Part shown: positions 5,098-29,741 of the stretch, piece by piece
Position numbering within the stretch: the first letter of the stretch is position 1
How the letters are laid out: the number at the start of each line of letters is the position of its first letter
Origin: Acaryochloris thomasi RCC1774
GTDB taxonomy: Bacteria > Cyanobacteriota > Cyanobacteriia > Thermosynechococcales > Thermosynechococcaceae
Direction of reading: 5' to 3'
Assembly: GCF_003231495.1 (NCBI RefSeq)
Contig: NZ_PQWO01000017.1
Span: 30,001-62,000, forward strand
Length of the DNA: 32,000 nucleotides
The notes under the pieces: model-generated
Seen by the model: only the letters and a program-made list of their open reading frames with translations
Database searches by the model: none
Told to the model about the DNA's origin: nothing
Translations under genes and position numbers: made by a program

Positions 5098-5122
5098 GAA
5101 TCAACTATTCCTTTTCAATGAT

Positions 5123-8500: not shown

Positions 8501-8591
8501 GATATCAATGAATTATCAATGGGACAACGCCTCGACTCTACCCAAACAGAATCGCTGTAGAGTATCGCCGAAGATCAACGGTCTCTTGAAA

Positions 8592-8948: not shown

Positions 8949-9037
8949 ATTTCCTAGCTTTAATCTATAGATGGGTATTGACGATTTCGAGATCTAGGCC
9001 GTACGGCACAGACTCTCTTCATGATACTGGGATATCT

Positions 9038-9955
9038 CTACGCAACCTCAAAGAATTCTCCTAACATCTTGACTTCTGGATGCAGAGAGAGAGACCATTC
9101 TTGCTCAACGCGATGCTGAACATGGCGAATCAAGTTGAAGATATCACTTGCCGTAGCATGCCCACAATTCAGAATAAAGTTGGCATGTTTCTGCGCAACC
9201 TGAGCGCCACCAAGTTGGTAGCCCTTCAGCCCCGCCTGCTCAATGAGCCACCCTGCAGAGCGCGGTAGGGGATTTCGAAAGACGCTGCCACAGCTTGGCC
9301 AGTCGTAGGGCTGGGTATTGAGGCGATGGCTGAGGTGAGTCTGGGTGGTGGTCTGCACAACCTTAGGATCTGCACCTGGCTGCAGCTGCAGCACGGCGCG
9401 AATCAGAGGACGTCTATCTTGCTGCAGGATAGATGAGCGGTAGGTATAGTTGAGGGCTGATGCGGGCAAAATTTCAATAGAGCCGTCGGGATTGAGAACG
9501 TGGGCCTCAACTAAGTTGTCAGCGGTGCAGCCGCCGTGGGCACCGGCATTCATCACCACGGCTCCACCCACGGTCCCGGGGATTCCAACCGCCCATTCTA
9601 GACCGGCCCAGCCTTTGCGCGCGGCTTGTTTGGCAAGCTTGGGGAGAGGTTTGCCGGCTTCAACCGTGATTCGCCCGGTTTGCTCATCAAAGTTGTGATG
9701 CTTGAGAAAACGCGTAGAGATAATTAAGCCAGGTAATCCCTGATCGCTAATGAGTAGGTTAGACCCTGCCCCCAGCAAGGTAGCAGAGATATTATTCTCA
9801 ACGGCCCATACATAGCTGGCCTGCAGATCTTCAACGGACTGCGGTGCAACAAACCATTCAGCAGGACCACCGACCTTGAAAGTTGTTAGATCTGACAGAG
9901 TGAACTGCGTCTGAATCTCGCTGCCAGAGGGTAGGTTAATGAGCATCGGAGTCAT
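9038..9955 (-). CDS. murB: UDP-N-acetylenolpyruvoylglucosamine reductase
   Basis: 305 aa. FAD-binding motifs TFKVGGPAEWF, LGAGSNLL and GIPGTVGGAVVMNAGAHG, plus the C-terminal GSVFRNP. Start overlaps the murC stop by 4 nt. Confidence 0.9.
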   Translation of the reverse strand: MTPMLINLPSGSEIQTQFTLSDLTTFKVGGPAEWFVAPQSVEDLQASYVWAVENNISATLLGAGSNLLISDQGLPGLIISTRFLKHHNFDEQTGRITVEAGKPLPKLAKQAARKGWAGLEWAVGIPGTVGGAVVMNAGAHGGCTADNLVEAHVLNPDGSIEILPASALNYTYRSSILQQDRRPLIRAVLQLQPGADPKVVQTTTQTHLSHRLNTQPYDWPSCGSVFRNPLPRSAGWLIEQAGLKGYQLGGAQVAQKHANFILNCGHATASDIFNLIRHVQHRVEQEWSLSLHPEVKMLGEFFEVA

Positions 9956-15809: not shown

Positions 15810-15960
15810 GTCAAAATAAACAGTAGAGTCAGCATAGGTTTATTTATTTTCGTATCGTTTTGAAGATTTATCGTTGTTTTAATCATTTTTGTACGCGATC
15901 TTGCCCGGTCGCAGCCTGATATTAGCGAATCAATATAGACTCCAGATTGGACCCTTAAGC

Positions 15961-16608
15961 ATGCCAGACCTAAGCACCACTGAACAAAATAAACTGCTGC
16001 TCATTGATGATGATCCGAACCTTGTTTTATTGGTGAAAGATTATTTAGAGCTGCGGGGCTACGAAGTGGTCACCGCAAAGAATGGCCGCGAGGCATTGAG
16101 AGTTCTGGAGCAAAATTTGCCCAGTCTGATTATTTGCGATGTCATGATGCCAGAGATGGACGGCTATTCGTTTGTAAAGCGGGTTCGCGACAATCCTCAA
16201 ACGAGCTGGTTACCGGTCTTATTTTTATCTGCAAAAGGACAAATTCAGGATCGAGTTACAGGTTTGAATACTGGGGCCGATGTTTACATGGTGAAGCCCT
16301 TCGAACCGGATGAATTAGTCGCTCAAATTGAGGCATCGCTGAAACAAACGGCGCGAATGCAGCAGCAACAGAATGCCCCCATTGAGGGTGAAGTCTCCAT
16401 TAATGTTCCTTTTGATGTTGATTTGACACCGACAGAACAAAAGGTGATTCAGCTGGTGGCGAAGGGCATGTCAAACCGTGAAATTGCGGCAGGGTTAAGC
16501 GTGAGTCAGCGTACGGTTGAGAGTCACGTCAGCAATATGCTGGGCAAAACGGGACTCAACAACCGGACAGAGCTTGCTCGCTGGGCCATTGAACAACGCA
16601 TGATCTAA
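15961..16608 (+). CDS. NarL/LuxR-type two-component response regulator
   Basis: The ORF track starts at TTG 15889. ATG 15961 gives MPDLSTTEQNKLLLIDDD. REC domain with acceptor Asp in IICDVMMPEMDG and KPF. C-terminal LuxR HTH LTPTEQKVIQLVAKGMSNREIAAGLSVSQRTVESHVSNMLGK. Confidence 0.9.
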   Translation: MPDLSTTEQNKLLLIDDDPNLVLLVKDYLELRGYEVVTAKNGREALRVLEQNLPSLIICDVMMPEMDGYSFVKRVRDNPQTSWLPVLFLSAKGQIQDRVTGLNTGADVYMVKPFEPDELVAQIEASLKQTARMQQQQNAPIEGEVSINVPFDVDLTPTEQKVIQLVAKGMSNREIAAGLSVSQRTVESHVSNMLGKTGLNNRTELARWAIEQRMI

Positions 16609-18957: not shown

Positions 18958-19100
18958 GAGAAAACGTACAAATCATAAAGAAACTTAAACAATCACTCGT
19001 TGAGGCTCATATTTAATTCTGATGAGCCACCATCATTATCAGTTAAGCGAGTGGCTGAGTCTATTTGTGAAATTTGCCATTATTATCCGGAGAATTGTCC

Positions 19101-20156
19101 ATGACCATAGCAGTCGGACGCGGCCAAGAGCGAGGATGGTTTGACGTCCTCGACGACTGGCTCAAGCGTGATCGGTTCGTCTTTATTGGTTGGTCCGGCG
19201 TTTTACTATTCCCCACCGCCTTTTTGGCACTGGGTGGATGGTTTACCGGCACAACCTTCGTTACATCTTGGTATTCCCACGGTCTTGCCAGCTCCTACCT
19301 AGAGGGCTGCAACTTTTTGACCGTTGCCATTTCCACACCTCCCGATAGCTTAGGGCACTCCCTCTTACTACCTTGGGGACCCGAAGCACAGGGTAACCTG
19401 ACCCGCTGGTTCCAGCTGGGCGGCCTGTGGACTTTTGTGGCACTGCACGGTGCCATTTCACTGGTGGGCTTCATGCTGCGTCAGTTTGAGATTGCGCGTC
19501 TTGTCGGCGTGCGTCCTTACAACGCCATTGCCTTTAGTGCACCCATTGCAGTTTTTGTCTCAGTCTTTTTGATGTACCCCTTGGGCCAGTCAAGCTGGTT
19601 CTTTGCACCGAGCTTTGGTGTCGCGGGCATCTTTAGATTCATTCTGTTTGTTCAAGGTTTCCACAACTTCACCCTCAACCCCTTTCACATGATGGGCGTT
19701 GCCGGTGTGTTGGGTGGCGCGCTTCTATGTGCGATTCACGGTGCCACAGTGGAGAACACCTTGTTTGAAGACGGTTCAGAGTCCAGCACTTTTGGTGCCT
19801 TCAACCCGACTCAAGCAGAAGAGACCTATTCAATGGTCACAGCAAACCGTTTCTGGTCACAGATTTTCGGTATTGCTTTCTCCAACAAGCGCTGGCTGCA
19901 CTTCTTCATGCTGTTTGTACCGGTTACCGGTCTATGGATGGCATCGATTGGAATTGTGGGTATTGCTTTGAACCTGCGTAGCTACGACTTCATCTCTCAG
20001 GAAGTCAGAGCGGCAGAAGACCCTGAGTTTGAGACGTTCTACACCAAGAATATTCTGCTCAACGAAGGTCTGCGTGCCTGGATGGCTCCGCAAGACCAGC
20101 CTCATGAAAACTTCATCTTCCCTGAAGAAGTACTGCCTCGCGGTAATGCTCTCTAA
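19101..20156 (+). CDS. psbD: photosystem II reaction-centre protein D2
   Basis: [28 protein letters not shown] ... [11 protein letters not shown], full-length D2. ATG 19101 gives the canonical N-terminus; the ORF track begins 9 codons upstream. Key residues are present: His in [25 protein letters not shown]. Confidence 0.97.
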
Positions 20157-20190
20157 AGAGAAAGATGTCAAAGTTTTAGCTTTATAGCTG

Positions 20191-20224
20191 AAAGGAGCCT
20201 TGCTAGTCGAGGCTCCTTTTTTAT
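20191..20224 (+). terminator. rho-independent terminator of psbD
   Basis: AAAGGAGCC (20191-20199) pairs perfectly with GGCTCCTTT (20211-20219) around an 11-nt loop. The T-run continues to 20222. It lies 35 nt after the psbD stop. Confidence 0.8.
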
Positions 20225-20312: not shown

Positions 20313-21029
20313 CTAAAAACCACCTCCAGCACCCCCACCTCCACTGGAACCACCTCCAAAACCTCCACCGCTACTCCCTGCATGATGATTGTGGCTACTT
20401 CCTCGATTAAAGAATAGAGAGCATAACCATAAAATACCGAAGAGCATTATCTTCCACCATTGCTTAATCCACGTAGACCAGGGGCGGCTCGAACGACCTG
20501 AGTCCTTGTTTTGCAATGCTGTGACTAAAACCGATGTTCCCGAAAGAACGCCTTGATCAAAGTGATCTTGCTTGAGACTGGGGATAATCTGATCGTCAAT
20601 GAGCTGCTTCACTTCGGTATTGGGCAAGATGGGTTCGATGCCATAGCCGGTCTCAATTTCTACTCTACGATCGCCCTTTGAGACCAAAAATAAGACGCCA
20701 TTATCTTTCCCTTTTTTACCAATCCCCCAAGTATTAAACAACTCGGTTGCAAATGTCTTTGGAGATTTCGAGGGAGAAGTCTCTGGGACCGTGACCACTG
20801 CAATCTCACTACTATTTTCAGCCTCTAGCTCTGAGATCATCTGATTAAGCTTCAGCTCTGTCGGCGCGCTCAAAACATCAGCCATATCAGTGACCCAACC
20901 ACCATTGTTCTGTCGCGGGTTGGGAACTTGTTCAATAGAAACGGCGATCGCAGGCAAAGTTGAACTCGCAATGGCTGCAGCACTTGCAAAACCTGCACAC
21001 TGAATTTTGAAGGGCGTAGAAGCTAGCAT
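20313..21029 (-). CDS. TPM-domain (TLP18.3/Psb32/MOLO-1, YgcG-like) protein with C-terminal TM and Gly-rich tail
   Basis: TPM pattern VTDMADVLS...L...EAENSSEIAVVTVPE...FATELFNTWGIGKKGKDNGVLFLVSKGDRRVEIETGYG. Signal-like N-terminus starts at ATG 21029; the ORF track starts at GTG 21104. TM helix IMLFGILWLCSLFF, then SSGGGFGGGSSGGGGAGGGF. Confidence 0.8.
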   Translation of the reverse strand: MLASTPFKIQCAGFASAAAIASSTLPAIAVSIEQVPNPRQNNGGWVTDMADVLSAPTELKLNQMISELEAENSSEIAVVTVPETSPSKSPKTFATELFNTWGIGKKGKDNGVLFLVSKGDRRVEIETGYGIEPILPNTEVKQLIDDQIIPSLKQDHFDQGVLSGTSVLVTALQNKDSGRSSRPWSTWIKQWWKIMLFGILWLCSLFFNRGSSHNHHAGSSGGGFGGGSSGGGGAGGGF

Positions 21030-21207
21030 TCGTTGCCTCGTAGTTGTAACTGAAAGCACTGTCCTTGTGCTGTTATGAGTAGCTTCCTGTAAAAATAGGA
21101 GCACTACAATCGGGTTTTTTCAGATCTTTGTCATGCGATCCTCAACGGCTCGAATTAGCTTTAGGGAGATTCCGTCTCTTTCCGAAGCTGCAGAGAAACG
21201 CTTCGGA

Positions 21208-23835
21208 TCAGGAAAAAGACTCTTGTTTCTGAGTTTCTGTTTGACAGGTATTGTCAAGGGGTACGAAATCTATTTTTGAGTTGCACTGCAGGGGCTCAAT
21301 CAATACCTGTGGAGGGAACTTGCGATCGCCACTCTTCTCAAAGGCAATCTTCCCGGTTGCCCCCCAAACACTGAAGCTAGGGTCAGCTAGGGCATTACGG
21401 GTTCCTGTCGGACTAGGTTGAGTCTGGGTCCGCAAGGCAGCAATCATGGCACGCGTTGCATCATAGGTCAGGGCCGTTTGTCCTTGAATCGAGGTGCCCC
21501 ACAGTTGGGCTGTGTGCTTGGGGAAATCTGGGTTGGGGCTAGTGGCAGGATGCCAGGGGACAGAGACGACAAGGGATGGCTGGCGTACATTCGGCAGCAC
21601 TTCTAAGGTTTTAGCGTTGTGGATTCCCCACGAACCGACGATGGCGTGGCGTCCGGCGTTGGCAGCAATCAGTTGAAAGGCGTTCTCCTGAGCCGGAGAG
21701 ACTTCGCCGTCTGGAACCAGCAGGATTGCAATCTCACTGGGGTTGCCGTATTGGGCTAGGGTTGCGATCGCATCTTCAGGATCAAATCCAGGGCTAGCTA
21801 AATCTGAGAGTGGATCGTTTTGCTGCACCTGCCGAACGATCTGGCCGCCTGCTTGCTGATAGATGTCCTTGAAGTCATCCCAAAAAGAGTGGGTAAAGGG
21901 ACTCTGAGGGTTGTAGTAAATCATCACTTTTTTCTGATTGGTTTTGATCAGATGGTTCGCGACAGACGTTGCTTCCACCGTTGTGACCGGAACCGTACGG
22001 AAAAAGTATCCCCCACCCATTTGCACCAGATCCTTGGCTGTCGAACCCGGCGAAATGACCGGAACCTGATGCTCCCGATAGATGGGGATTGTAGGTTCAG
22101 ACATGTCGCTAGCGTAGTGACCCACCACCCCCATAATCCTCGGGTTAGAGACTAGATCCCGTGCTCGCTGCTGAGCTTGATCGGCCACGTTCCAGTCATC
22201 GGCAATCACAACTTTGAGACCGATTTGGTCACCCACAGGGTTTGGTTTCAGAAATGAGACATCTAGCGGTTTTGGCAGCTTACCTAGATTGAGATTGGCC
22301 TCTGTCTGGGCCTGGGCAATGCCTCGAAGGAGTTGATAAGCCAATGCGTGACTTGAAATTTGGTTGTTATCTTGACGATGCAGAAATGGAACGCTCACGG
22401 CAATCGTGTGGTGCTTGATTTGAGAGGCATCTATGATCGCATTGTTGAGATAGATCAGCGTTTCAGGATCGGCTCCATCGTCTTGCCAAGATTCCAGTAG
22501 TTTCTGGATACCCTCTTGATACTTTGCCTGGGCCAGCAAACGAACTGCTTTAACTTTGTGAACCGGACGAGACCCTAGAATCTCCTCGCCCGTGCTGATG
22601 TAGTCACCTTGCAGCGGATGAGTTAATGGATTTCTCCAGGGCTGTGCTACGAGTAGAATGCCCGCAGCGACAGCACCCAGAATTCCCCCACATTTTGCCC
22701 AAAGACGAAGAGGCTTGAGTAATCTGTTCGGCACAGTAGGGGCCTGAGGCCAAGTCAGAGCAGTAGCCTGAGGCTGCTGGAAGAGGGTCGGTAGCCAAGT
22801 TGCATAGGGAAAACGATCTTGAAGAGCCTCTAGATCATGCTGGGCCGCCAGCACCGCGTGGTGAATTGAGCGACCCGCAATTGAGAACTGTTGGATAAAA
22901 GACTGGAAAAAACGGTGGGCGACCGGATCAGGGACCGGCTCTCGCATGTAGATGACGTAGGGAATCTTTAGATCTGAGAGATGACGCGCTAATCCTAAAC
23001 CATCACAGGAATTGAAGATGCAGATTTTCAGTCCACTGGCGGCTGCGATCCTTAGATGATGATGGAGTTCTTTCGAGGTAAAGCTATCGGTCTCGTTAAT
23101 GGATAAGATGCCTCGCTGGTCTTCTGTGCGGCTGTGGCCAGCGAAGAATAAGATATCCCAGCCCTGTTCATGCATGAGGGCTTGAGCAACTTGATGACGA
23201 TTAGGCTGTTCGAGACAGGTTAGCTCGATGTGGGGAATCGCATTGAGGATTTCTAGGTCTGGGGTTAGGTTAAGGTTGCGATCGCATCCCAATATTGCCA
23301 ACACCCGCACCGGAGAGGTCAAGGTACTGGCCTGACCCTGCTGATACTCTAGAGAACCTAGCGAAATAGGAATTTGGCGATCGTGTCGCTGTAACTGATC
23401 CCAAAGATGCCACGGTAGCCGCTGCAGCTCAGGGTTATCCGTTCGAATCAGCAGCCGGATATCCTCAGAAGCACCATAAACTTCAGAAAGCTGACGAGTG
23501 ATGCGCTGAAAATCTCCAGAGGCGTTGAGCCATTGCCGAAAGCGACTCTCCAATTGCTGGGCAGCAGCATCACACTGCTGCTTAGCCTGCTGCTTTTTGC
23601 GCCTTAGATTCAGACTCTGTGCTGAGGCCGCTTCAAATTCGAGTCGAGTGGCTTCACCCAAATTGCAGTAGTATCCGTGCCAGTCTGCATAGAGAGTCGT
23701 TAGATCGGTATTCGGTGTCAAAGTGCCCAGCAGGGTGCCCTGGGTTTGAAAGCTTCCTTCTGTGCGCCACTCCAGTGCAGCTTGGACCCCTTCAGACAGT
23801 TGGCCCCGCAGCCTCAGCACGATAATATGCATCAC
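21208..23835 (-). CDS. CHAT (caspase-fold) protease - single TM - periplasmic type 1 PBP (LivK/Venus-flytrap) fusion protein
   Basis: 875 aa. CHAT core at about aa 170-350 with dyad His234 in ILFFAGHS (codon 23134-23136) and Cys277 in IFNSCDG (23005-23007). Conserved-looking LPWHLW at 23401-23418. TM helix aa 377-399 (22639-22707), with 4 basic residues on its N-side. Residues 410-850 read as a LivK-type binding protein (KVVIADDWNVADQAQQRARDLVSNPRIMGVVGHYASDMSEPTIPIYREHQVPVISPGSTAKDL). Start is GTG 23835 or ATG 23832. Confidence 0.85.
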   Translation of the reverse strand: MMHIIVLRLRGQLSEGVQAALEWRTEGSFQTQGTLLGTLTPNTDLTTLYADWHGYYCNLGEATRLEFEAASAQSLNLRRKKQQAKQQCDAAAQQLESRFRQWLNASGDFQRITRQLSEVYGASEDIRLLIRTDNPELQRLPWHLWDQLQRHDRQIPISLGSLEYQQGQASTLTSPVRVLAILGCDRNLNLTPDLEILNAIPHIELTCLEQPNRHQVAQALMHEQGWDILFFAGHSRTEDQRGILSINETDSFTSKELHHHLRIAAASGLKICIFNSCDGLGLARHLSDLKIPYVIYMREPVPDPVAHRFFQSFIQQFSIAGRSIHHAVLAAQHDLEALQDRFPYATWLPTLFQQPQATALTWPQAPTVPNRLLKPLRLWAKCGGILGAVAAGILLVAQPWRNPLTHPLQGDYISTGEEILGSRPVHKVKAVRLLAQAKYQEGIQKLLESWQDDGADPETLIYLNNAIIDASQIKHHTIAVSVPFLHRQDNNQISSHALAYQLLRGIAQAQTEANLNLGKLPKPLDVSFLKPNPVGDQIGLKVVIADDWNVADQAQQRARDLVSNPRIMGVVGHYASDMSEPTIPIYREHQVPVISPGSTAKDLVQMGGGYFFRTVPVTTVEATSVANHLIKTNQKKVMIYYNPQSPFTHSFWDDFKDIYQQAGGQIVRQVQQNDPLSDLASPGFDPEDAIATLAQYGNPSEIAILLVPDGEVSPAQENAFQLIAANAGRHAIVGSWGIHNAKTLEVLPNVRQPSLVVSVPWHPATSPNPDFPKHTAQLWGTSIQGQTALTYDATRAMIAALRTQTQPSPTGTRNALADPSFSVWGATGKIAFEKSGDRKFPPQVLIEPLQCNSKIDFVPLDNTCQTETQKQESFS

Positions 23836-23844
23836 TTTACTCGC

Positions 23845-24792
23845 CTAAATGACAAAATTTTCAACGTGTTGGGCCTCGCCATAGCTCAGTTGAAGATAGA
23901 AACGTTCATCGAGAGCCGCACTAAAGGGTCGAGGAATCAGGTCACCACTACTCGTTGGCGAGAGCTGCTGAAAGGTCTGTCCGGCGGCATCGACAACGGC
24001 AAGCTGTAGATTACTGGGCAGTGGCTGCTCAGCCTCAATGACTAGTTCAATTTTGAAGCTACCCTCTGCTTTCGGCGATAGAGCCATGATCACTTCCACA
24101 TTAAGATCATGGAGCTGAATCGTTTTGGACACCAACGCCTGATCACGAAGGTCAGAAGCAGATAACTGGAGCTTCTCAGCCTCAACGCTGCGAGTGGCGA
24201 GGCTCATCTCTGCCAACGTGAAGTCTTGCGATAGCTGCCACCCGTGGAATGCTCCCACAGCAGACTCTACCAGTATATTCCCTTGTTCTCTTGCCCAGGC
24301 CCAGACTTGACTTAGGACCGTAGTTTGACTCTCATGCAGGTACTGAGGGAGTGCTTCAATAGGCTGAAGCTGACTAAGGAAAATTTTTCCGCTGGGTGGA
24401 ATGGGCTGAGGATTAAAGCCTAGAATTTGAGCCTGCTCAAGATGATCTTCAATCTGCACCATTACGTAGGCGATGCGATCGCACCAAGCATCCACCGGCA
24501 CCTGAAAGGTTGTCTCGCCAGCCTGGATCGGGCAGCACTCCAGTCGGCCCATATCTTTGACCACGAGATCTGCTCCCTCTAGCAGCTGGGAAAGAATGGA
24601 ACTGTGGCGCGGTTCAACCTCAAAGGCCATGCATTTCAGATAAAAATCAACGGCATAAACCGCTAGACCATTGCGAAACTGCTGCTGATTGTGATCGGCA
24701 TCGAACTGCGGCTGTACCTGTTTTTGGGCAATGTTCCAGGCTTTAGAAGTCAGCGGAACCGGAAAACCTGAGATTGAAGTTGAAGAGGTCAT
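23845..24792 (-). CDS. DUF1822-family protein
   Basis: 315 aa. Matches my memory of the cyanobacterial DUF1822 pattern: PVPL....A...A......NGLAVYAVDFYLKCMAFEVE, GRLECCPIQAGETTFQVPVDAWCDRIAYVMVQIEDHLEQAQILGF. Its stop is only 9 nt before the CHAT gene start. Confidence 0.8.
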   Translation of the reverse strand: MTSSTSISGFPVPLTSKAWNIAQKQVQPQFDADHNQQQFRNGLAVYAVDFYLKCMAFEVEPRHSSILSQLLEGADLVVKDMGRLECCPIQAGETTFQVPVDAWCDRIAYVMVQIEDHLEQAQILGFNPQPIPPSGKIFLSQLQPIEALPQYLHESQTTVLSQVWAWAREQGNILVESAVGAFHGWQLSQDFTLAEMSLATRSVEAEKLQLSASDLRDQALVSKTIQLHDLNVEVIMALSPKAEGSFKIELVIEAEQPLPSNLQLAVVDAAGQTFQQLSPTSSGDLIPRPFSAALDERFYLQLSYGEAQHVENFVI

Positions 24793-24832
24793 AGGTAAGG
24801 GTTAAAGCAACGACAGGTTCTAAGGAGTAATT

Positions 24833-25531
24833 CTAGAGATACTGATTAAAGTAGGGCAGTAGTTTCTGCAGAGTCCGCTGGAAAAAACAGGACAGCGTTT
24901 GGATCGGGATGCCGGTTTGGTCCGCCAGCTCTCGCCAGGTTTTGCCTTGGATATGACGGGCGATCGCCAAACATTGAAACGTAACCGTTGGGTGATGTCT
25001 AACGGCATAGGCGGCCAGCTTGCCCTCTGGATCTGTTTCTAGAAAAACCTGAAGTTTTTCATGTTCACGATCTGCCTCAGGATAGGGGATTTTATCCGGC
25101 TCAAAAAGAGGGACAGCAGGCTGTTCGCCCATCAGCTCTCGAAACTTGAAGCTCAGCGTACTGTTGACCCAAGCCATCACGGGATGCTCGCGTCGGTAAA
25201 GCTCAGGCTTCTGACAGATATAGAAATACATTTTCTGTTTAGCCTCGTTATATAGGTCAGCAAAGGCAGGGGCTGAATAGAACTGAGCATACTTTCTCAA
25301 TCGATTCAGTTGCCCTGACTGCTCAATGGTGATCACCAGCCGAGTCAATGCTTGCTGCCGAGCAATGGACTGTGAAGGATGGCCTTGAGCTTCTAACACT
25401 AACGCCAATAATTTTTGATCAATGGACTCATCCATATCTGGCTCTGAGGTTGAAGAGAAATGAGAGAGTCCCTCCTTTGTAAGCACTAAGGTCTCTATTT
25501 CTTTTGAATCAGGAACTGTGGTCTCCAGCAT
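24833..25531 (-). CDS. sigma-70-family-like (ECF-sized) protein
   Basis: 232 aa. LLALVLEAQGHPSQSIARQQALTRLVITIEQSG, then a region-2-like block (LYNEAKQKMYFYICQKPELYRREHPVMAWVNSTLSFKFRELM). C-terminal region-4-like HTH (GKTWRELADQTGIPIQTLSCFFQRTLQKL). Stop lies 40 nt before the DUF1822 start. Confidence 0.7.
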   Translation of the reverse strand: MLETTVPDSKEIETLVLTKEGLSHFSSTSEPDMDESIDQKLLALVLEAQGHPSQSIARQQALTRLVITIEQSGQLNRLRKYAQFYSAPAFADLYNEAKQKMYFYICQKPELYRREHPVMAWVNSTLSFKFRELMGEQPAVPLFEPDKIPYPEADREHEKLQVFLETDPEGKLAAYAVRHHPTVTFQCLAIARHIQGKTWRELADQTGIPIQTLSCFFQRTLQKLLPYFNQYL

Positions 25532-26267
25532 TGGCGCTTTTGGCCCCTATTCGTGCAAAAATTCGGCTCCATTCATAGGGTCTTATGGACTGATGGTCCT
25601 ATATTCTGCATTTCGTTACAGAGGTTAATATTTTCCGATTTTGCAGAAAAAGGGATGACTTTTCTCTATAGAACATCAGAAGGGTTTGCGGGCATCAACT
25701 GTTAGCCTGTTTTGGCAAAAGATGTGCCGGATTCTTTTACCCCATGTGGTGAAGGCTCCAAATCAATCCACGAAATTCCACGATCCAGTCCTGTTGTTTT
25801 CACAAGCGTCTGCATGAATTTTAGGTAAGGCTGTTGCGCAGGCAATACAGAATTATCCAGAACATTTGGGTCACGTCCTCATTACCGATTTCCAATAAAT
25901 CCTGAAAATATCCAATTGTTCTTTGAAGTTCATCATCAGACGCTAGAACTAAGCCGAACGGAGGGTTATTTTTATTCTTCAATTCTCCTCTTGAGGCGGT
26001 TTGCATCATCAATTCTATCTGAAAAAAATTTCGCCAAATATTCTAGGACTCTTTACTCAATGAGGCATTTAAATCATGCGAATCACAACTCGCTGTATTG
26101 GATGAACCGTCAGCGCTATCCTTTCCGGCATGACGGCACCACCCGCTGTAGGTCAGGCTCAGCCCTATCCATCGGTTGTCGTTGAGACTTATCTCGCAGC
26201 ATGTTCCAAAGATAGTCATGTTCCTCAGTCCTACTGTGAATGCACCATTTGAGAACTGCAGCGAACC

Positions 26268-26684
26268 ATGAGCTTCGGAGATTACATGAAATTTTCTCTC
26301 GCGCTGCAGCAAAATCCAAAGACTCCATCGCCGACGGCCTTAACGAGTGCTGTCGCTGCTTGTCTACCCGCAAATGATCAGCAAGCTGCTCCAGAGAAAG
26401 ATCGTTCCACGTTCTCTCAACGTCCCCCGTCAGAGTACCCCTCTATCGCTGTGCAAGCCTTCATGAAGGGATGTGAGCGGAGTGGTGAAGCGCCGCCCGG
26501 ATTCTGTCAGTGCTCGATTGATGAAGTTCAAAAGCAGATGTCTTTTGATGCATTTGTACGGTGGACGTTTCAAGAACAGCAAGATGTATCTAATCTCCCT
26601 CCTGCATTTCAGAAGTCTGTACTTCTATGCGCCCTGAAGCATGGCGAGCCTCAGCGGGGGAGGCCACAACTGCCTAGCGTTTGA
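26268..26684 (+). CDS. hypothetical small Cys-containing protein, first ORF of the NfeD-flotillin operon
   Basis: 138-aa ORF. The C-terminal half looks protein-like (AFMKGCERSGEAPPGFCQCSIDEVQKQMSFDAFVRWTF). The N-terminal part is low-complexity with a possible lipobox (AVAAC). Start uncertain (ATG 26268 or 26286). The 5' end overlaps minus-strand ORFs. Confidence 0.45.
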   Translation: MSFGDYMKFSLALQQNPKTPSPTALTSAVAACLPANDQQAAPEKDRSTFSQRPPSEYPSIAVQAFMKGCERSGEAPPGFCQCSIDEVQKQMSFDAFVRWTFQEQQDVSNLPPAFQKSVLLCALKHGEPQRGRPQLPSV

Positions 26685-26757
26685 GCTGGTGAGTCCTTAT
26701 TTATACCCTGCTGTGCCTGATCATCGCTCCTGATAAATACTTTCATGGTGAACCAAC

Positions 26758-27081
26758 ATGGTTGTACTGATCTGTTTTTCCATTGGCGTTGGTGTCGGTT
26801 GCGGGGTTGCGATCGCAACCCTCATCTGGCTGCGGCGGCGAGACCAGGTTATCGACAGTCTCATCCAGCTAGAGCAGTTAGTGGGTCATGCGGGCACGGT
26901 GGAAATGCCGTTTGATCACCACAGTCAGGGCAAGGTGCGGGTGGATATCAATGGCTCTGCCCTTAACCTGCGGGCCTTTACTGACGACGTTCAGGGGTTC
27001 AAATTAGGCGATCGTGTCGTTGTGATGGCAACCCAGGGCGATCGGGTGTGGGTGGTCTCAGAGCAGACTTTCAAAACTTAG
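26758..27081 (+). CDS. short NfeD-family protein (TM helix + C-terminal OB-fold)
   Basis: 107 aa. N-terminal TM (VVLICFSIGVGVGCGVAIATLIWL), then the NfeD OB pattern GHAGTVEMPF....GKVRVDINGSALNLRAF......FKLGDRVVVMATQGDRVWV. Sits directly upstream of the flotillin genes, as in known NfeD-SPFH operons. Confidence 0.75.
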   Translation: MVVLICFSIGVGVGCGVAIATLIWLRRRDQVIDSLIQLEQLVGHAGTVEMPFDHHSQGKVRVDINGSALNLRAFTDDVQGFKLGDRVVVMATQGDRVWVVSEQTFKT

Positions 27082-27124
27082 CGAAAGTCATACTTCCAGC
27101 GTTTGCAATTGTATCGAGGTAACC

Positions 27125-28513
27125 ATGAATAAGCAGCTTTATTCAACTGACCGGATCATCGCTCAGTCTTCAGAAGGAACCACAACTCAGCCGGGGTTCG
27201 ATGTTGAAATTCAGCCCCCCTCTAATATTCTGGGTGTCGGATTGCCTCTGGCTTTAGCCGTCTGCGGTAGTGTGCTGAGCGTTTGGTTTTTGAAGTCTTT
27301 CTTAGTGATTTGTAAGCCCAGCGAAGTGGTCATTCTCTCGGGGCGTAAGTGGCGCACTCCAGAGGGTCAGCGGGTCGGCTACCGCGTGATCACCGGGGGG
27401 CGTGCGATGCGCATCCCCATCGTGGAGACGGTGAAGCGGATGGATGTCACGACGATGCCCGTGCCGGTGGAAGTCCATAATGCCTATTCCAAAGGCGGAA
27501 TTCCCTTGCATATTCAGGCGATCGCAAATATCAAAATCTCCAGCAATCCCAAGGTGGTCGGTAATGCCATTGAGCGATTCTTGGGGCATAAACGCACAGA
27601 AATTATCCGAGTCGCTCAAGAAACATTGGCGGGCAATCTGCGCGGCGTTGTCGCCACCCTAACCCCAGAACAGGTCAACGAAGATCGTCTCAAATTTGCC
27701 GAACATATTGCCTCAGATGTCAGCCGACAACTGCAGACCTTAGGGCTCCATTTAGATATTCTCAAAATTCAGAGCGTTGCAGACGATGTCGACTACCTCA
27801 GTTCTCTCGGTCGCAAGCGAATCGCCATGATTTTGCGTGATGCCGAAGTGGCAGAGTCTGATGCACTAACGGCGGCAGAACAAGAGGAGGCTGAGTGCCA
27901 GGAGCGGTCGCAGGTGGCCGAGACTCAGGATCGGATTGTGATCATTGAGCAGGAGAATCAGCTCCGTAAAATCACAGCCCAACTGGAGCGACAGGCGCGC
28001 TCTGAAGAAGAAATTACCGTCGCGGCGACAAATGAACGACAGGCCAAAATGGAGCAAGTCTTACAAACCCTCCGGGCCAAAGTAGAGCGCTTGCGGCTGC
28101 AGGCCGATCAAATCTTACCGGCTCAAGCACAACAGCAGGCCGCAGAGCTACGACAGCGGGGCAACGCCGCCATTTTGGAGGAGAACGCTCGCGCTGCGGC
28201 CCTCGTCAACGACATGCTAGCTGAGGTATGGCAAGAGATTGGCACGGATGCCTCTCAAGTCTTCTTAAGTCAGCAGATCGAAACCGTGCTGCGTGAGGCA
28301 GTGCAGATTCCTGAGCGACTGAAGCTGCACCAGGTCAGCGTGGTGGACAACGGCGATGGTAAGGCCATCGCGAGCCTAGTCAAAGTTTACCCCCAGGTAG
28401 TGCGCCAGTTCCTAGACAGTCTCCACGAAACCCTGGGGATTGATGTCGTCGGCACGCTGACGCAGGCACAACTGCCTTCCTCGGATAGCCATTCTCATCA
28501 ACTACAAGCATAG
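27125..28513 (+). CDS. flotillin-family SPFH (band 7) protein, paralogue 1
   Basis: 462 aa. Membrane hairpin, SPFH core (AYSKGGIPLHIQAIANIKI...NAIERFLG...ETLAGNLRGVVATLTPEQVNEDR...DYLSSLGRKRIA), then a long E/A/Q-rich coiled-coil flotillin domain. ATG preceded by GAGGT. Confidence 0.85.
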   Translation: MNKQLYSTDRIIAQSSEGTTTQPGFDVEIQPPSNILGVGLPLALAVCGSVLSVWFLKSFLVICKPSEVVILSGRKWRTPEGQRVGYRVITGGRAMRIPIVETVKRMDVTTMPVPVEVHNAYSKGGIPLHIQAIANIKISSNPKVVGNAIERFLGHKRTEIIRVAQETLAGNLRGVVATLTPEQVNEDRLKFAEHIASDVSRQLQTLGLHLDILKIQSVADDVDYLSSLGRKRIAMILRDAEVAESDALTAAEQEEAECQERSQVAETQDRIVIIEQENQLRKITAQLERQARSEEEITVAATNERQAKMEQVLQTLRAKVERLRLQADQILPAQAQQQAAELRQRGNAAILEENARAAALVNDMLAEVWQEIGTDASQVFLSQQIETVLREAVQIPERLKLHQVSVVDNGDGKAIASLVKVYPQVVRQFLDSLHETLGIDVVGTLTQAQLPSSDSHSHQLQA

Positions 28514-28523
28514 GGGAACAATT

Positions 28524-29741
28524 ATGGAACTCATTCTCATCTTCATGGGCCTCGGAAGCCTTAGCGTTGCCACTGGCTGGGGCGTCATTCAAAACTTCTA
28601 TCGCATTTGCCAACCCAGCGAAGTCTTGATCTTTGCCGGTCGCCGGACGCGATTAGCCAGTGGTCAGTCCATGGGCTATCGCCTAGTCAAGGGCGGCAGC
28701 AGTCTGCAGGTGCCCCTATTAGAGCAGACCTTCCACATGGATCTGACGAATATGATTATTGACCTGCAGGTGACCGGGGCCTATTCCAAAGGCGGCATTC
28801 CGCTGACGGTTACAGGGGTCGCCAACATCAAAATTGCCAGTACAGAACCGACTATTCACAACGCCATTGAACGTCTCTTGGGTAAAAAGCGGGAGCAGAT
28901 TGAGCAACTGGCGAAAGAAACCCTAGAGGGAAATCTACGGGGAGTACTAGCAAGTCTCACACCAGAACAGGCCAATTCCGACCAGCTTGCCTTTGCCAAG
29001 AGCCTTTTAGACGAGGCCGAAGAAGATCTAGAAAAACTGGGCCTTTTATTGGACAGCTTGCAAATTCAAACCATTTCTGACGAAGTGAGCTATCTCGATT
29101 CTTTAGGGCGTCAGCAGCAAGCAGAGCTGATCCGCGACGCTCGCATTGCAGAAGCTCAGTCCAGAGCCGAGTCTGTGATTAAGGACTCGGCCAACCTCCG
29201 CAGTACCGCACTCCGAAAGCTGCAGCGGGACGAAGAAATTGCCAAGGCTAATGCGGAAAAACGGGTACGGGATGCGCTGACAAAAAGGGTAGCGGCGATC
29301 GCAGAGGTTGAATCTGTTGTAGAGGTCCAGGTTGCTCGCGTCAAGGCTGAAGCTGCTGTGGAAACAGAGCGAATTCATCAGGTAGAGCAGCAGCTTCAAG
29401 CGGAAGTGATTGCCCCAGCTGAAGCGGACTGTGAAGTTGCGATCGCATCTGCCAAAGGCCAAGCCGCCCGCATTATCGAAGAAGGTAAAGCCCAGGCCAC
29501 CGGCACTCGACAGTTGGGGCAATCTTGGCAGTCGGCTGGGTCCAATGCTCAGGACATTTTTATGTTTCAGCAGCTGCATATTTTAACCAAATTAATGGCC
29601 GCTAGCGTCCCGGAAGTAAGCGTGAAAAACGTCAGCGTTATCGATACCCAAGACGGGGCCACCGCCACTAAATTGGCCGCCTTCATAGAACAATTCCAGC
29701 AAGCCACCGGCATAGATATGTATCGAATGCTAGGGAAATAG
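28524..29741 (+). CDS. flotillin-family SPFH (band 7) protein, paralogue 2
   Basis: 405 aa. Same architecture as paralogue 1 (AYSKGGIPLTVTGVANIKI...NAIERLLG...ETLEGNLRGVLASLTPEQANSDQ...SYLDSLGRQQQA). Starts 10 nt after the paralogue 1 stop. Confidence 0.85.
   Translation: MELILIFMGLGSLSVATGWGVIQNFYRICQPSEVLIFAGRRTRLASGQSMGYRLVKGGSSLQVPLLEQTFHMDLTNMIIDLQVTGAYSKGGIPLTVTGVANIKIASTEPTIHNAIERLLGKKREQIEQLAKETLEGNLRGVLASLTPEQANSDQLAFAKSLLDEAEEDLEKLGLLLDSLQIQTISDEVSYLDSLGRQQQAELIRDARIAEAQSRAESVIKDSANLRSTALRKLQRDEEIAKANAEKRVRDALTKRVAAIAEVESVVEVQVARVKAEAAVETERIHQVEQQLQAEVIAPAEADCEVAIASAKGQAARIIEEGKAQATGTRQLGQSWQSAGSNAQDIFMFQQLHILTKLMAASVPEVSVKNVSVIDTQDGATATKLAAFIEQFQQATGIDMYRMLGK

What the first reader, a model, noticed from the sequence alone, without database searches (positions are those of the whole stretch)
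21208..25531. Candidate uncharacterised signalling system: sigma-like factor, DUF1822 and a transmembrane CHAT protease with an extracytoplasmic ligand-binding domain
SEEN: three minus-strand ORFs are packed with 40-nt and 9-nt gaps and no intervening hairpin or U-tract, so they very likely form one operon. The order is sigma-70-like protein, DUF1822 protein, CHAT-TM-PBP1 protein. ESTABLISHED: CHAT domains are caspase-fold His/Cys proteases. In type III-E CRISPR systems (Craspase) the CHAT protease Csx29 cleaves Csx30, a protein that associates with an ECF sigma factor. Regulated proteolysis of anti-sigma factors is the standard way of releasing ECF sigmas. INFERENCE: here the RNA-guided sensor is replaced by a periplasmic Venus-flytrap domain. 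I propose that ligand binding outside the cell switches on the cytoplasmic CHAT protease. The protease would then cleave the DUF1822 protein (a candidate anti-sigma or adaptor) or the sigma-like protein itself, and this would launch a dedicated transcriptional programme. To my knowledge none of the three components has an experimentally defined function, and DUF1822 is a cyanobacteria-centred family of unknown function. I also recall DUF1822 genes sitting next to sigma-like and CHAT/CHASE2 genes in filamentous cyanobacteria, but I cannot verify that here.
Basis: partly seen in the sequence, partly recalled or inferred. Interest (0 to 1): 0.88.

Follow-up and report, generated by a model that had tools for sequence, protein, structure and literature searches.

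The report
Sensor-protease, DUF1822 and sigma-like gene module
Three adjacent cyanobacterial genes encode a membrane receptor with a caspase-like protease inside the cell, a DUF1822 protein and a divergent sigma-type transcription factor; the trio is conserved, was pointed out by computer analysis in 2021, and has never been tested in the laboratory.

Summary
Three minus-strand genes sit at the stated coordinates, separated by 40 nt and 9-12 nt. They are genes C1752_06372 to C1752_06370 of Acaryochloris thomasi RCC1774.

- **Protease gene:** it has a conserved N-terminal module, a CHAT domain whose His234/Cys277 are invariant in 115 homologues, one transmembrane helix, and an outside LivK-like type I binding domain.
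- **Middle gene:** DUF1822.
- **First gene:** a divergent ECF-type sigma. Region 4 is reasonably supported and region 2 only weakly.

The trio is a conserved unit. Of 74 related protease genes from other cyanobacteria, 56 have DUF1822 directly upstream. Of 64 with enough flank, 37 have the whole trio. The protease head is constant and the tail varies (CHASE2, binding protein, STAND-WD40).

This matches the "EACC2-caspase + DUF1822 + ECF sigma" neighbourhood that Kaur et al. (eLife 2021) described from sequence alone, with a similar proposal. So the finding is not new in kind, but it is untested experimentally.

The likeliest mechanism is inferred, not shown. A ligand activates the protease, which cuts DUF1822 and frees the sigma, as in CalpL-CalpT-CalpS and Craspase-Csx30.

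The parts
24833..25531 (-). Gene for a divergent ECF-type sigma-like protein (232 aa; C1752_06372). The true start may be Met33 (ATG at 25435-25433), giving 200 aa.
   Evidence: The ORF is. The window protein gives only sub-threshold HTH_23 and ECF-sigma region 4 hits. In the wider family, Sigma70_r2 matches 3 of 43 relatives, Sigma70_r4_2 matches 5 and Sigma70_ECF matches 1. The family profile matches R. sphaeroides RpoE region 2 at E 0.03. hhalign against E. coli RpoE gives probability 69% and E 4e-5, colinear from sigma2 to sigma4. Foldseek matches to sigma region 4 have rmsd 1.1-1.4 A. Most of the 789 family representatives begin at profile positions 30-36.
23845..24792 (-). Gene for a short-form DUF1822 protein (315 aa; C1752_06371). 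It has an N-terminal alpha+beta domain, a flexible linker with a conserved L174...W185...R201 motif, and a C-terminal beta-sandwich.
   Evidence: Pfam DUF1822 at E 1.2e-33. The AlphaFold2 model has pLDDT 73. Residues 10-140 and 219-315 are confident and 157-215 are not. Linker conservation comes from 76 sequences. Foldseek returns only generic beta-sandwich matches.
21208..23835 (-). Gene for the receptor-protease (875 aa, or 874 aa from the ATG at 23832; C1752_06370). Publicly named 'ABC transporter substrate-binding protein'.
23326..23835 (-). Conserved N-terminal module of the protease (about residues 1-170). It corresponds to the 'EACC2' constant domain of Kaur et al. 2021.
   Evidence: G11, L39, W52, Y56, W102, W142 and W145 are at least 95% conserved. 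The module stays constant while the C-terminal domains vary. It tracks DUF1822 divergence with r 0.90. No reference EACC2 profile was available, so the assignment rests on context.
22786..23310 (-). CHAT (caspase-fold) protease domain, about residues 176-350. The catalytic His234 codon is at 23134-23136 and the Cys277 codon at 23005-23007.
   Evidence: Pfam CHAT scores 40.4 bits against a cut-off of 24. H234 and C277 are invariant in 115 and in 55 homologues. The codons were checked by translation.
22636..22704 (-). Single transmembrane helix (residues 378-400). The predicted topology puts the N-terminus inside the cell.
   Evidence: The Kyte-Doolittle peak is 1.89. The translation is LWAKCGGILGAVAAGILLVAQPW. 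Arg/Lys residues lie on the N-terminal side and acidic residues follow the helix.
21319..22221 (-). Extracytoplasmic type I periplasmic-binding-protein (Venus-flytrap) domain, residues 539-839.
   Evidence: Peripla_BP_6 at E 1.8e-21 and ANF_receptor at E 8e-11. The nearest solved relatives are Leu/Ile/Val and amino-acid binding proteins (4mlc E 1.6e-9; LivK 2lbp E 1.6e-7). The equivalents of LivK Ser79 and Thr102 are kept.
25595..25652 (-). Conserved non-coding block upstream of the sigma-like gene. Its core TGTAACGAAATGCAGAA lies at 25604-25620. It is a candidate promoter or operator of the module.
   Evidence: The exact composite motif occurs in only 2 of 88 fetched loci, each about 100 nt upstream of the sigma-like gene. 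A block of about 55 nt aligns in six loci. TTGTAA[AC] is about 10-fold denser upstream of sigma-like genes than elsewhere. The window holds no second copy.

Best explanation
This is a self-contained three-gene signalling module. It belongs to the 'EACC2-caspase + DUF1822 + ECF sigma' class that is widespread in cyanobacteria.

The 875-aa protein is a single-pass membrane receptor. A LivK-like type I binding domain faces outward and probably binds an amino acid or a similar small molecule. A constant N-terminal module plus an active-looking CHAT cysteine protease face the cytoplasm.

Proposed mechanism (inferred, not shown):
1. Ligand binding, or ligand loss, changes the state of the receptor across the membrane and switches on the CHAT protease.
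2. DUF1822 holds the divergent ECF-type sigma factor inactive. It docks on the protease head and is cut in its flexible linker. The conserved Arg201 is a candidate site.
3. The sigma factor is freed, probably after further degradation of the DUF1822 fragment.
4. The sigma factor transcribes its own operon, possibly from the conserved TGTAAC...TGCAGAA block, and an unknown regulon.

Shown: gene order, domains, the conserved dyad, predicted topology, conservation of the trio and co-variation of the three proteins. Inferred: every step of signalling and proteolysis.
For: **Domains and dyad.**

**Topology.**

**Constant head, variable tail.** Among 55 relatives all have CHAT, 43 have CHASE2, 6 have Peripla_BP_6 and 3 have nSTAND1+WD40. 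This pattern is what one expects of interchangeable input domains on a fixed output.

**Conserved trio.**
- 56 of 74 loci have DUF1822 directly upstream, and 37 of 64 have the full trio.
- Orthologous trios with the binding-protein tail sit in otherwise unrelated flanks (L001, L084, L085).

**Sigma identity.**

**Fusion evidence.** In L073 a sigma-region-4/GerE helix-turn-helix, a TRADD-like_N domain and DUF1822 form one 629-aa protein directly upstream of the protease gene. This links the DNA-binding part physically to DUF1822.

**Co-variation over 41 trios.**
- r is 0.85 for sigma-DUF1822, 0.90 for DUF1822-protease and 0.73 for sigma-protease.
- The partial correlation of sigma and protease given DUF1822 is -0.13.
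- The partial correlation of sigma and DUF1822 given the protease is 0.65 (permutation p about 0.001).
- This places DUF1822 between the other two proteins.

**Shape of DUF1822.** It has two domains joined by a low-confidence linker that carries a conserved Arg. The proven substrates Csx30 and CalpT have a comparable layout and are cut in flexible regions.

**Precedents.** Protease, anti-sigma and ECF-like sigma work together in Craspase (PMC10028731) and CalpL/T/S (bioRxiv 10.1101/2024.05.08.593097). DdvA-DdvS also links a CHAT domain to an ECF sigma (PMC11506125).

**Earlier proposal.** Kaur et al. 2021 reached a similar model independently.
Against: - There is no experimental or structural evidence for any interaction or cleavage.
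- The DUF1822 model matches no known anti-sigma fold and not Csx30 or CalpT. It has no zinc-binding anti-sigma motif.
- The sigma assignment is weak for the window protein itself. All its hits are below the curated cut-offs, and the model has pLDDT 60 with no Foldseek E-value below 0.1.
- The upstream motif looks like short direct repeats with a 10-bp period in some loci. That would suit a conventional DNA-binding regulator at least as well as a sigma promoter.
- Roughly a quarter of related protease genes lack DUF1822, and about 40% lack a detectable sigma-like gene. The protease therefore has outputs that do not need them.
- The mirror-tree correlations were not corrected for species phylogeny, and the short, fast-evolving sigma gives noisier distances.
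Confidence: 0.45

Rival explanations
1. Autoproteolytic switch, the emphasis of Kaur et al. 2021. The stimulus makes the CHAT domain cut its own polypeptide, between the head and the membrane anchor or within the head. The released or activated head then acts on downstream partners. DUF1822 is an adaptor or scaffold rather than the substrate, and the sigma factor is only the last step.
For: [quoted passage not shown] For the CHAT-bearing anti-sigma DdvA, autoproteolysis in trans is also the favoured model. The head-to-helix linker (residues 351-377) is among the less conserved, gap-rich stretches. DUF1822 tracks the N-terminal half of the head (r 0.90) more closely than the catalytic half (r 0.67), as a docking partner would.
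Against: I found no conserved candidate self-cleavage site. This model does not explain why DUF1822 has a conserved Arg in a flexible linker, or why helix-turn-helix domains are fused to DUF1822 in some systems. It is not exclusive of the best explanation, since both cuts could occur.
Confidence: 0.2
2. Conflict or programmed-cell-death system. The CHAT protease is a death or dormancy effector with broad or lethal targets, triggered by an invader-derived or damage-derived signal outside the cell. The sigma-like protein and DUF1822 only regulate or amplify it.
For: Kaur et al. place EACC2-caspase proteins among apoptosis and immunity systems of multicellular bacteria. Some related loci sit beside Peptidase_C14-nSTAND1-WD40 genes, TPR-CHAT genes, transposases and toxin-antitoxin genes. 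Some family members carry nSTAND1+WD40 tails.
Against: None of the three proteins matches PADLOC. Every window neighbour I scanned is a housekeeping gene: tuf, fusA, murB, murC, obg, psbD, a TPM-domain gene and SPFH genes. I saw no cas genes and no mobile elements. A scan of viral contigs found no copy. The sensor resembles nutrient (Leu/Ile/Val) binding proteins. The host A. thomasi is, to my knowledge, unicellular.
Confidence: 0.15
3. The first gene encodes an ordinary helix-turn-helix regulator, not a sigma factor. It binds the repeated TGTAA[AC] elements as a repressor or activator of the operon. The link to RNA polymerase is illusory.
For: The window protein passes no curated sigma threshold. 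The upstream element occurs as direct repeats spaced 10 or 22 bp apart in several loci. In fused forms only a region-4/GerE-type helix-turn-helix is attached to DUF1822, with no region 2.
Against: The family consensus 'YDPER..V.TWVN..L..R..D' aligns with ECF region 2.3-2.4. The hhalign match to RpoE is colinear through both domains (E 4e-5). Three relatives hit Pfam Sigma70_r2, the best at E 2.7e-6. The top Foldseek hits are mostly full-length ECF sigmas. JGI and UniRef also name members as sigma-70/sigma-24 family.
Confidence: 0.12
4. The public annotation is right: the 875-aa protein is simply a substrate-binding protein of an ABC transporter, and the adjacency of the three genes is incidental.
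For: NCBI, UniRef and JGI name it and its homologues 'ABC transporter substrate-binding protein'.
Against: No permease or ATPase genes lie next to it. The binding domain is only the C-terminal 40% of the protein, behind a transmembrane helix and a conserved CHAT protease with an invariant dyad. The trio recurs across genera with different sensor tails.
Confidence: 0.02

Closest known systems
EACC2-caspase neighbourhoods with an ECF sigma factor and DUF1822 (Kaur, Iyer, Burroughs, Aravind, eLife 2021, PMC8195603). A computational description only.
   Same: - A constant N-terminal alpha+beta module plus a caspase-fold (CHAT) domain.
- A variable C-terminal tail that may lie outside the cell behind transmembrane helices.
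- Adjacent DUF1822 and ECF-type sigma genes.
- Mainly cyanobacterial.
- The proposed logic is stimulus, then peptidase activation, then sigma.
   Different: - I did not find the type I binding-protein tail as a string in the supplement text held here. The paper speaks only of 'several small-molecule-binding domains'.
- The paper calls DUF1822 a TPR protein. The short form in this window is modelled as an alpha+beta domain, a linker and a beta-sandwich. Helical (HEAT-like) repeats appear only in longer forms.
- The paper reports no upstream DNA motif and no co-variation analysis.
CalpL-CalpT-CalpS (type III CRISPR-associated SAVED-Lon protease, anti-sigma factor and ECF-like sigma)
   Same: A tripartite logic: a sensor domain fused to a protease, a two-part intermediary protein of about 300 aa that is cut in a poorly structured region, and a divergent ECF-like sigma that is released.
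   Different: - The protease is Lon, not CHAT.
- The sensor is cytoplasmic SAVED, which binds cA4, not an extracytoplasmic binding domain.
- The system is soluble, not membrane-anchored.
- No homology between DUF1822 and CalpT was detected.
- CalpL/T/S is linked to CRISPR, whereas the window has no cas genes among the ORFs scanned.
Craspase (Cas7-11 + TPR-CHAT Csx29) with Csx30, Csx31 and CASP-sigma
   Same: A CHAT-family His/Cys protease is activated allosterically by a sensor and cuts a two-domain protein that binds and inhibits an ECF-like sigma factor. The sigma factor autoregulates its own locus.
   Different: - The sensor there is an RNA-guided Cas7-11 complex.
- Csx29 has an N-terminal TPR region rather than the EACC2-type module.
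- Foldseek found no similarity between DUF1822 and Csx30.
- Craspase is cytoplasmic.
DdvA-DdvS of Myxococcus xanthus (a transmembrane anti-sigma factor with a TPR-CHAT domain, and its ECF sigma)
   Same: A single-pass membrane protein carrying a CHAT domain is coupled to an ECF sigma factor. Signal-induced CHAT proteolysis is the proposed trigger.
   Different: - The topology is inverted. In DdvA the CHAT domain is periplasmic and the cytoplasmic part is a zinc-binding anti-sigma domain in the same polypeptide.
- In this window the CHAT domain is cytoplasmic, the outside domain is a binding protein, and any anti-sigma function would lie in a separate protein (DUF1822).
- The DdvA active site is incomplete. 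Here the dyad is intact and invariant.
Classical regulated proteolysis of anti-sigma factors (DegS/RseP-RseA-sigmaE; established knowledge, summarised)
   Same: An extracytoplasmic signal leads to proteolysis of a sigma antagonist and so to release of an ECF sigma.
   Different: In the classical pathway the antagonist is the membrane protein and the proteases are separate. Here the protease is the membrane receptor and the putative antagonist is soluble.

Membership tests
EACC2-caspase / DUF1822 / ECF-sigma module (Kaur et al. 2021) | A constant N-terminal alpha+beta module directly precedes the caspase-fold domain | tested here: met
   Residues 1-170 are conserved together with the CHAT domain in 115 and in 55 relatives. 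A scan with this head found 589 relatives. Identity with 'EACC2' is inferred from matching operon architectures in the paper's supplement. No reference profile was available.
EACC2-caspase / DUF1822 / ECF-sigma module (Kaur et al. 2021) | A variable C-terminal sensor region, sometimes extracellular behind transmembrane helices | tested here: met
   Among 55 relatives, 43 have CHASE2, 6 have Peripla_BP_6 and 3 have nSTAND1+WD40. The window protein has one transmembrane helix followed by a type I binding domain.
EACC2-caspase / DUF1822 / ECF-sigma module (Kaur et al. 2021) | Neighbouring genes for DUF1822 and an ECF sigma factor | tested here: met
   In the window the gene order is sigma-like, DUF1822, protease. 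The same order occurs in 37 of 64 related loci.
CHAT peptidase (caspase fold, clan CD) | A match to the family model above the curated threshold | tested here: met
   PF12770 scores 40.4 bits against a cut-off of 24.
CHAT peptidase (caspase fold, clan CD) | A catalytic His-Cys dyad is present and conserved | tested here: met
   H234 (FAGHS) and C277 (NSCDG) are 100% conserved.
CHAT peptidase (caspase fold, clan CD) | Proteolytic activity | not testable with these tools
   This needs an enzyme assay.
ECF (group 4) sigma-70 factor | A sigma region 4 helix-turn-helix (-35 binding) | tested here: inconclusive
   The window protein scores 22.1 bits on HTH_23 against a cut-off of 24.6, and hits ECF-sigma models at E 2e-3 to 6e-2 over residues 190-225. 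Five of 43 relatives hit Sigma70_r4_2. Foldseek matches to SigW and SigD region 4 have rmsd 1.1-1.4 A and probability 0.77-0.90, but E-values above 1.
ECF (group 4) sigma-70 factor | Sigma region 2 (core binding and -10 recognition) | tested here: inconclusive
   The window protein alone gives no hit. Three of 43 relatives hit Sigma70_r2, the best at E 2.7e-6. The family profile matches RpoE (2q1z) at E 0.03. hhalign against E. coli RpoE gives probability 69% and E 4e-5 over sigma2 to sigma4.
ECF (group 4) sigma-70 factor | Binds RNA polymerase core and directs promoter-specific initiation | not testable with these tools
   This needs a pull-down and in vitro transcription.
Type I periplasmic binding protein (Leu/Ile/Val-binding type) | A family model match and similarity to solved members | tested here: met
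   Peripla_BP_6 scores 77.6 bits against a cut-off of 31.7. The nearest solved relatives are 4mlc, 3td9 and LivK 2lbp at E 1e-9 to 1e-7.
Type I periplasmic binding protein (Leu/Ile/Val-binding type) | Residues that hold the amino-acid backbone of the ligand (LivK Ser79 and Thr102, recalled from my own knowledge) | tested here: inconclusive
   The alignment to 2lbp places S576 opposite Ser79, and the Thr of SPGST opposite Thr102. The second lobe (Tyr202 and Glu226 equivalents) was not aligned.
Craspase (type III-E CRISPR protease system) | A Cas7-11/gRAMP partner and a CRISPR array | tested here: not met
   No cas-like domain appears in any ORF of 150 aa or more that I scanned. There are no tandem repeats. 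The sensor is a fused binding domain instead.
Craspase (type III-E CRISPR protease system) | A Csx30-like substrate | tested here: not met
   The DUF1822 model returned only generic beta-sandwich matches against the PDB. The caveat is that the model has pLDDT 73 and only whole-chain searches were possible.
Class I anti-sigma factor (anti-sigma domain, with or without zinc) | A three- or four-helix anti-sigma domain, often with an HxxxCxxC motif | tested here: not met
   The DUF1822 N-terminal domain is modelled as mixed alpha+beta. No anti-sigma structure appears among the Foldseek hits. No HxxxCxxC motif is present in the sequence.

The most novel reading that the evidence does not exclude
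DUF1822 is a previously unrecognised class of soluble anti-sigma factor. The EACC2-CHAT receptors would then be a large cyanobacterial family of one-protein transmembrane sensor-proteases. They would read extracellular small molecules (here an amino-acid-like ligand, elsewhere through CHASE2) and release a dedicated clade of ECF-like sigma factors by cutting DUF1822 at a conserved linker arginine. That would be a stand-alone, non-CRISPR counterpart of Craspase and CalpL signalling, used for ordinary environmental sensing, with its own promoter element (TGTAAC...TGCAGAA).
Probability: 0.3. Interest if true: 0.8.

Novelty: new member of a known kind. Interest (0 to 1): 0.55.

Why it matters
**If the proposed mechanism holds**
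- It would give a function to DUF1822.
- It would also give a function to hundreds of cyanobacterial proteins now labelled 'ABC transporter substrate-binding protein'.
- It would add a new route for controlling alternative sigma factors, in which a membrane receptor is itself the caspase-like protease.
- It would show that the protease, anti-sigma and sigma logic found recently in CRISPR-associated systems is also used for sensing the outside world.

**Why it is testable**
The system is small (three genes). It has clear catalytic residues to mutate, a plausible ligand class and a candidate promoter element to use as a reporter.

**What limits the novelty**
The gene association and the general idea were already published in 2021 from sequence analysis. 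The value here is a well-documented example and some new leads, not a discovery of a new kind.

Tried and rejected
- **Sequence search of the sigma-like family against solved structures.** Nothing was significant with the 13-sequence profile. The 43-sequence profile gave only marginal hits.
- **AlphaFold2 model of the sigma-like protein.** It reached pLDDT 60, and Foldseek gave no E-value below 0.1. I used it only as weak support.
- **Search for related loci with the DUF1822 alignment.** I used the protease head instead, so the large sample is centred on the protease. Only seven loci are centred on DUF1822.
- **Viral contigs.** No DUF1822 relative was found.
- **PADLOC.** None of the three proteins matched.
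- **Rfam and RNA folding.** There was no Rfam hit in the window. The 5' leader folds no better than shuffled sequence (z -0.38), so I rejected a riboswitch or leader-RNA idea.
- **A second copy of the upstream motif in the window, as a regulon hint.** With up to 3 mismatches there were 5 matches against 2.95 expected, so nothing beyond chance.
- **Downstream TPM-domain gene (20313-21104) as a fourth member.** Rejected, because the downstream gene differs in each orthologous locus.
- **Bipartite -35/-10 search upstream of sigma-like genes.** It gave only T-rich pairs and no clean ECF-type promoter.
- **Complex prediction.** AlphaFold-Multimer on sigma+DUF1822 or DUF1822+protease could not be run.

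Full report
**1. What is in the sequence**

- 24833-25531 (232 aa)
- 23845-24792 (315 aa)
- 21208-23835 (875 aa)

The gaps are 40 nt and 9 nt. An exact-sequence look-up shows the window comes from Acaryochloris thomasi RCC1774. The genes are C1752_06372, C1752_06371 and C1752_06370. The public record starts the large protein one codon later, at the ATG at 23832 (874 aa), which makes the second gap 12 nt.

The consensus scan finds no terminator-like site in either gap, and the overall number of sites is no higher than in shuffled sequence. There are no Rfam matches and no tandem repeats in the window. The 5' leader folds no better than shuffles.

The neighbours I scanned are housekeeping genes, apart from a LuxR-type response regulator, a class A beta-lactamase-family protein and a few ORFs with no Pfam match:
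- tuf and fusA, murB and murC, and obg
- psbD, which I recognised from the translation
- a TPM-domain gene
- an NfeD gene followed by two SPFH genes

**2. The three proteins**

*The large protein.* Pfam gives these hits, all above their cut-offs:
- CHAT, residues 197-339, 40.4 bits against a cut-off of 24
- Peripla_BP_6, residues 541-834, E 1.8e-21
- ANF_receptor, E 8e-11

There is one hydrophobic helix at residues 378-400. Arg and Lys lie before it and acidic residues after it. By the positive-inside rule the protease is cytoplasmic and the binding domain is outside the cell.

In a MAFFT alignment of 115 full-length homologues, H234 (FAGHS) and C277 (NSCDG) are invariant. The first 170 residues also carry a set of highly conserved aromatic residues. 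I checked the two codons by translation.

The binding domain is closest to solved Leu/Ile/Val and amino-acid binding proteins: 4mlc at E 1.6e-9 and LivK 2lbp at E 1.6e-7. The alignment keeps the equivalents of LivK Ser79 and Thr102. That these two residues hold the ligand backbone is from my own recall.

The architecture is common. Among the 8000 candidates scored, 3356 proteins reached E 1e-3 or better, and nearly all of the best 120 combine CHAT with Peripla_BP_6. Sources that give a name mostly call them 'ABC transporter substrate-binding protein'. That name is very likely wrong.

*The middle protein.* It is DUF1822 (E 1.2e-33). An AlphaFold2 model (pLDDT 73) shows three parts:
- a confident alpha+beta domain, residues 10-140
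- a low-confidence stretch, residues 157-215
- a confident beta-sandwich, residues 219-315

Foldseek against the PDB gives only generic Ig-like and beta-sandwich matches. No anti-sigma factor, Csx30 or CalpT appears.

In 76 non-identical short DUF1822 proteins, the 'disordered' stretch still holds a conserved motif. L174 is 99% conserved, W185 100% and R201 88%. A variable, gap-rich segment follows.

*The first protein.* This is the weakest assignment. On its own it reaches only HTH_23 at 22.1 bits (cut-off 24.6) and ECF-sigma models at E about 1e-3 over residues 190-225. The family gives more:
- Among 43 relatives taken from conserved trios, 5 hit Sigma70_r4_2, 3 hit Sigma70_r2 (best E 2.7e-6) and 1 hits Sigma70_ECF.
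- The 43-sequence profile finds R. sphaeroides RpoE region 2 at E 0.03.
- A profile-profile comparison with E. coli RpoE aligns 117 columns colinearly from region 2 to region 4, with probability 69% and E 4e-5.
- The structure model is poor (pLDDT 60). Its best Foldseek hits are nevertheless mostly ECF sigmas, and region 4 superposes at 1.1-1.4 A.

An exhaustive profile search finds 789 cluster representatives at E 1e-3 or better. Most are 205-240 aa long and begin at profile positions 30-36. So this is a compact, divergent clade, and the window gene may really start at Met33 (ATG at 25435).

My reading is a divergent ECF-type sigma factor. A plain helix-turn-helix regulator is not excluded.

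**3. Is the trio a unit?**

I scanned one genome per species with the conserved protease head. The scan found 589 relatives, and 80 loci were kept.
- 56 of 74 loci with at least 1.2 kb of upstream sequence have DUF1822 immediately upstream on the same strand.
- 37 of 64 loci with at least 2.2 kb have the full order sigma-like, DUF1822, protease.
- The genera include Nostoc, Moorena, Calothrix, Pseudanabaena, Microcoleus and others.

If a genome carried as many as 30 DUF1822 genes among about 6000 genes, chance would give well under one such adjacency in 74. That gene count is my assumption.

From the DUF1822 side I examined seven loci. A CHAT gene lies directly downstream in six. In the seventh (L088) the downstream 968-aa product has no domain record. 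Six of the seven have a sigma-like gene or an unannotated gene of 209-271 aa directly upstream or one gene away.

Orthologous trios with the binding-protein tail (L001, L084, L085) sit in unrelated flanks. The module is therefore self-contained, and the downstream TPM gene is not part of it.

Among 55 relatives the head is constant and the tail varies: 43 have CHASE2, 6 have Peripla_BP_6 and 3 have nSTAND1+WD40.

**4. Comparison with the literature**

'DUF1822' occurs in only two papers of the library. One is Kaur, Iyer, Burroughs and Aravind, eLife 2021 (PMC8195603). It does three things:
- It defines proteins with a constant N-terminal 'EACC2' domain plus a caspase domain and highly variable C-termini. 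Some of those tails are extracellular behind transmembrane helices, for example CHASE2.
- It proposes that stimuli trigger peptidase activation, with the sigma factor as the final step.

Its supplement lists operons such as 'HTH -> TRADD-N+TPRs (DUF1822 family) -> EACC2+CASPASE+X'.

My data reproduce this split. A subclass of long DUF1822 proteins (410-630 aa) lacks a separate sigma-like gene. One of them (L073) is a fusion of a sigma-region-4/GerE helix-turn-helix, TRADD-like_N and DUF1822. Others contain HEAT-like repeats in the middle, which explains the paper's 'TPR' label.

I did not find the binding-protein tail named in the supplement text held here. The paper does mention 'several small-molecule-binding domains'. 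'EACC2' appears in no later relevant paper.

The association and the general model are therefore published, but only from sequence analysis.

**5. How it most likely works**

Three experimentally studied systems share the logic:
- Craspase: the CHAT protease Csx29 cuts Csx30, which binds and inhibits the ECF-like CASP-sigma.
- CalpL-CalpT-CalpS: a sensor-protease fusion cuts a roughly 300-aa anti-sigma factor in a poorly structured region. Further degradation then frees an ECF-like sigma.
- DdvA-DdvS: a membrane anti-sigma factor carries a periplasmic TPR-CHAT domain.

By analogy, I favour this sequence of events:
1. Ligand binding outside the cell activates the cytoplasmic CHAT domain.
2. The protease cuts DUF1822 in its linker.
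3. The sigma factor is released.

- The helix-turn-helix fusion with DUF1822.
- Co-variation over 41 trios. Pairwise distance matrices correlate at 0.85 (sigma-DUF1822), 0.90 (DUF1822-protease head) and 0.73 (sigma-protease). The partial correlation of sigma and protease given DUF1822 is -0.13, while sigma and DUF1822 given the protease stays at 0.65 (permutation p about 0.001). This places DUF1822 between the other two proteins. DUF1822 also tracks the N-terminal half of the head (r 0.90) better than the catalytic half (r 0.67).
- The two-domain, flexible-linker shape of DUF1822 with a conserved Arg.

None of this shows binding or cleavage. The co-variation is not corrected for species phylogeny. 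I put the mechanism at about 0.45, and the identification of the module class at about 0.9.

**6. A conserved DNA element**

Upstream of the sigma-like gene lies a block of about 55 nt (window 25595-25652, minus strand). It aligns with the equivalent regions of L001, L006, L084, L007 and L060.

Its core is TGTAAC-N3-ATGCAGAA at 25604-25620. The relaxed form TGTAA[AC]-N2-4-ATGCAGAA occurs in only two of the 88 fetched loci, each about 100 nt upstream of the sigma-like gene.

TTGTAA[AC] is about ten times denser in the 250 nt upstream of sigma-like genes than elsewhere in the loci (2.14 against 0.21 per kb per strand). It is present in 23 of 46 loci. Part of that excess will reflect AT-rich intergenic DNA and closely related Nostoc genomes.

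In other loci the hexamer is repeated at 10-bp or 22-bp spacing. The block is a candidate autoregulated promoter or operator. The window contains no second copy.

**7. Verdict**

This is a well-documented member of a computationally defined, experimentally untouched class, in its binding-protein variant. It sits in a housekeeping context, in a cyanobacterium that is, to my knowledge, unicellular.

I set interest at 0.55. The system is attractive and easy to test, and it has good precedents, but a specialist who knows the 2021 paper would not be surprised by its existence.

Noticed in passing
window 21208-23835 (and homologues P0034-P0153): Public databases name this CHAT-TM-binding-domain receptor and many of its homologues 'ABC transporter substrate-binding protein' or 'branched-chain amino acid transport system substrate-binding protein'. 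No transporter genes lie next to it. This looks like a systematic mis-annotation.
   Followed up: partly
window 25433-25531: The first 32 codons of the sigma-like ORF are not conserved, and most family members begin at profile positions 30-36. The real start may be the ATG at 25435 (Met33). An AAGGAGG at 25471-25477 lies about 36 nt upstream of that ATG, too far to be an obvious ribosome-binding site.
   Followed up: partly
L054 2085-8860 and L019 (Pseudanabaena): Here the related protease ORF is only about 615-630 codons and has no binding domain. In L054 a separate gene on the opposite strand, highly similar to the binding domain, lies between DUF1822 and the protease gene. This may be a split version of the receptor.
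   Followed up: no
L002 11588-12355, L086 9521-10300, L087 9556-10329: Modules with a CHASE2 tail carry a DUF928 gene directly downstream of the protease gene, and often a TPR-CHAT gene nearby. The binding-protein versions (window, L001, L084, L085) lack both.
   Followed up: no
L010-L012 and L016 (Nostoc spp.), about 300-9400: Two DUF1822-protease pairs are arranged head to head, with a single sigma-like gene in the '+' unit. One sigma may serve two sensor-proteases.
   Followed up: no
window 20313-21104 (-): A TPM-domain protein (E 7.5e-39) with a glycine-rich C-terminal tail lies 103 nt downstream of the protease gene on the same strand. A TPM gene also lies a few genes upstream of the module in the Nostoc locus L002. 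It is absent from the orthologous loci L001, L084 and L085, so I judged the link coincidental.
   Followed up: partly
window 19074-20220 (+): A psbD-like gene (photosystem II D2, recognised from the translation) is followed by a strong terminator-like hairpin at 20190-20220, with 13 pairs and a T-run. It converges on the module's strand.
   Followed up: no
window 26268-29741 (+): An ORF of 138 aa with no Pfam match is followed by an NfeD-like gene (sub-threshold) and two SPFH/Band 7 (flotillin-like) genes. This looks like a membrane-microdomain operon, transcribed divergently from the module.
   Followed up: no
window 15889-16608 (+): A response regulator with a receiver domain and a LuxR/GerE helix-turn-helix also touches Sigma70_r4_2 exactly at its threshold. 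This shows that region-4-like hits alone do not identify a sigma factor.
   Followed up: no
DUF1822 residues 82-89 (window about 24526-24549): The motif G-x-L-E-C-x-P-V is nearly invariant across DUF1822 proteins (G82, L84, E85, C86 and P88 at 85% or more). It lies in a beta-hairpin of the N-terminal domain. Its role is unknown.
   Followed up: no
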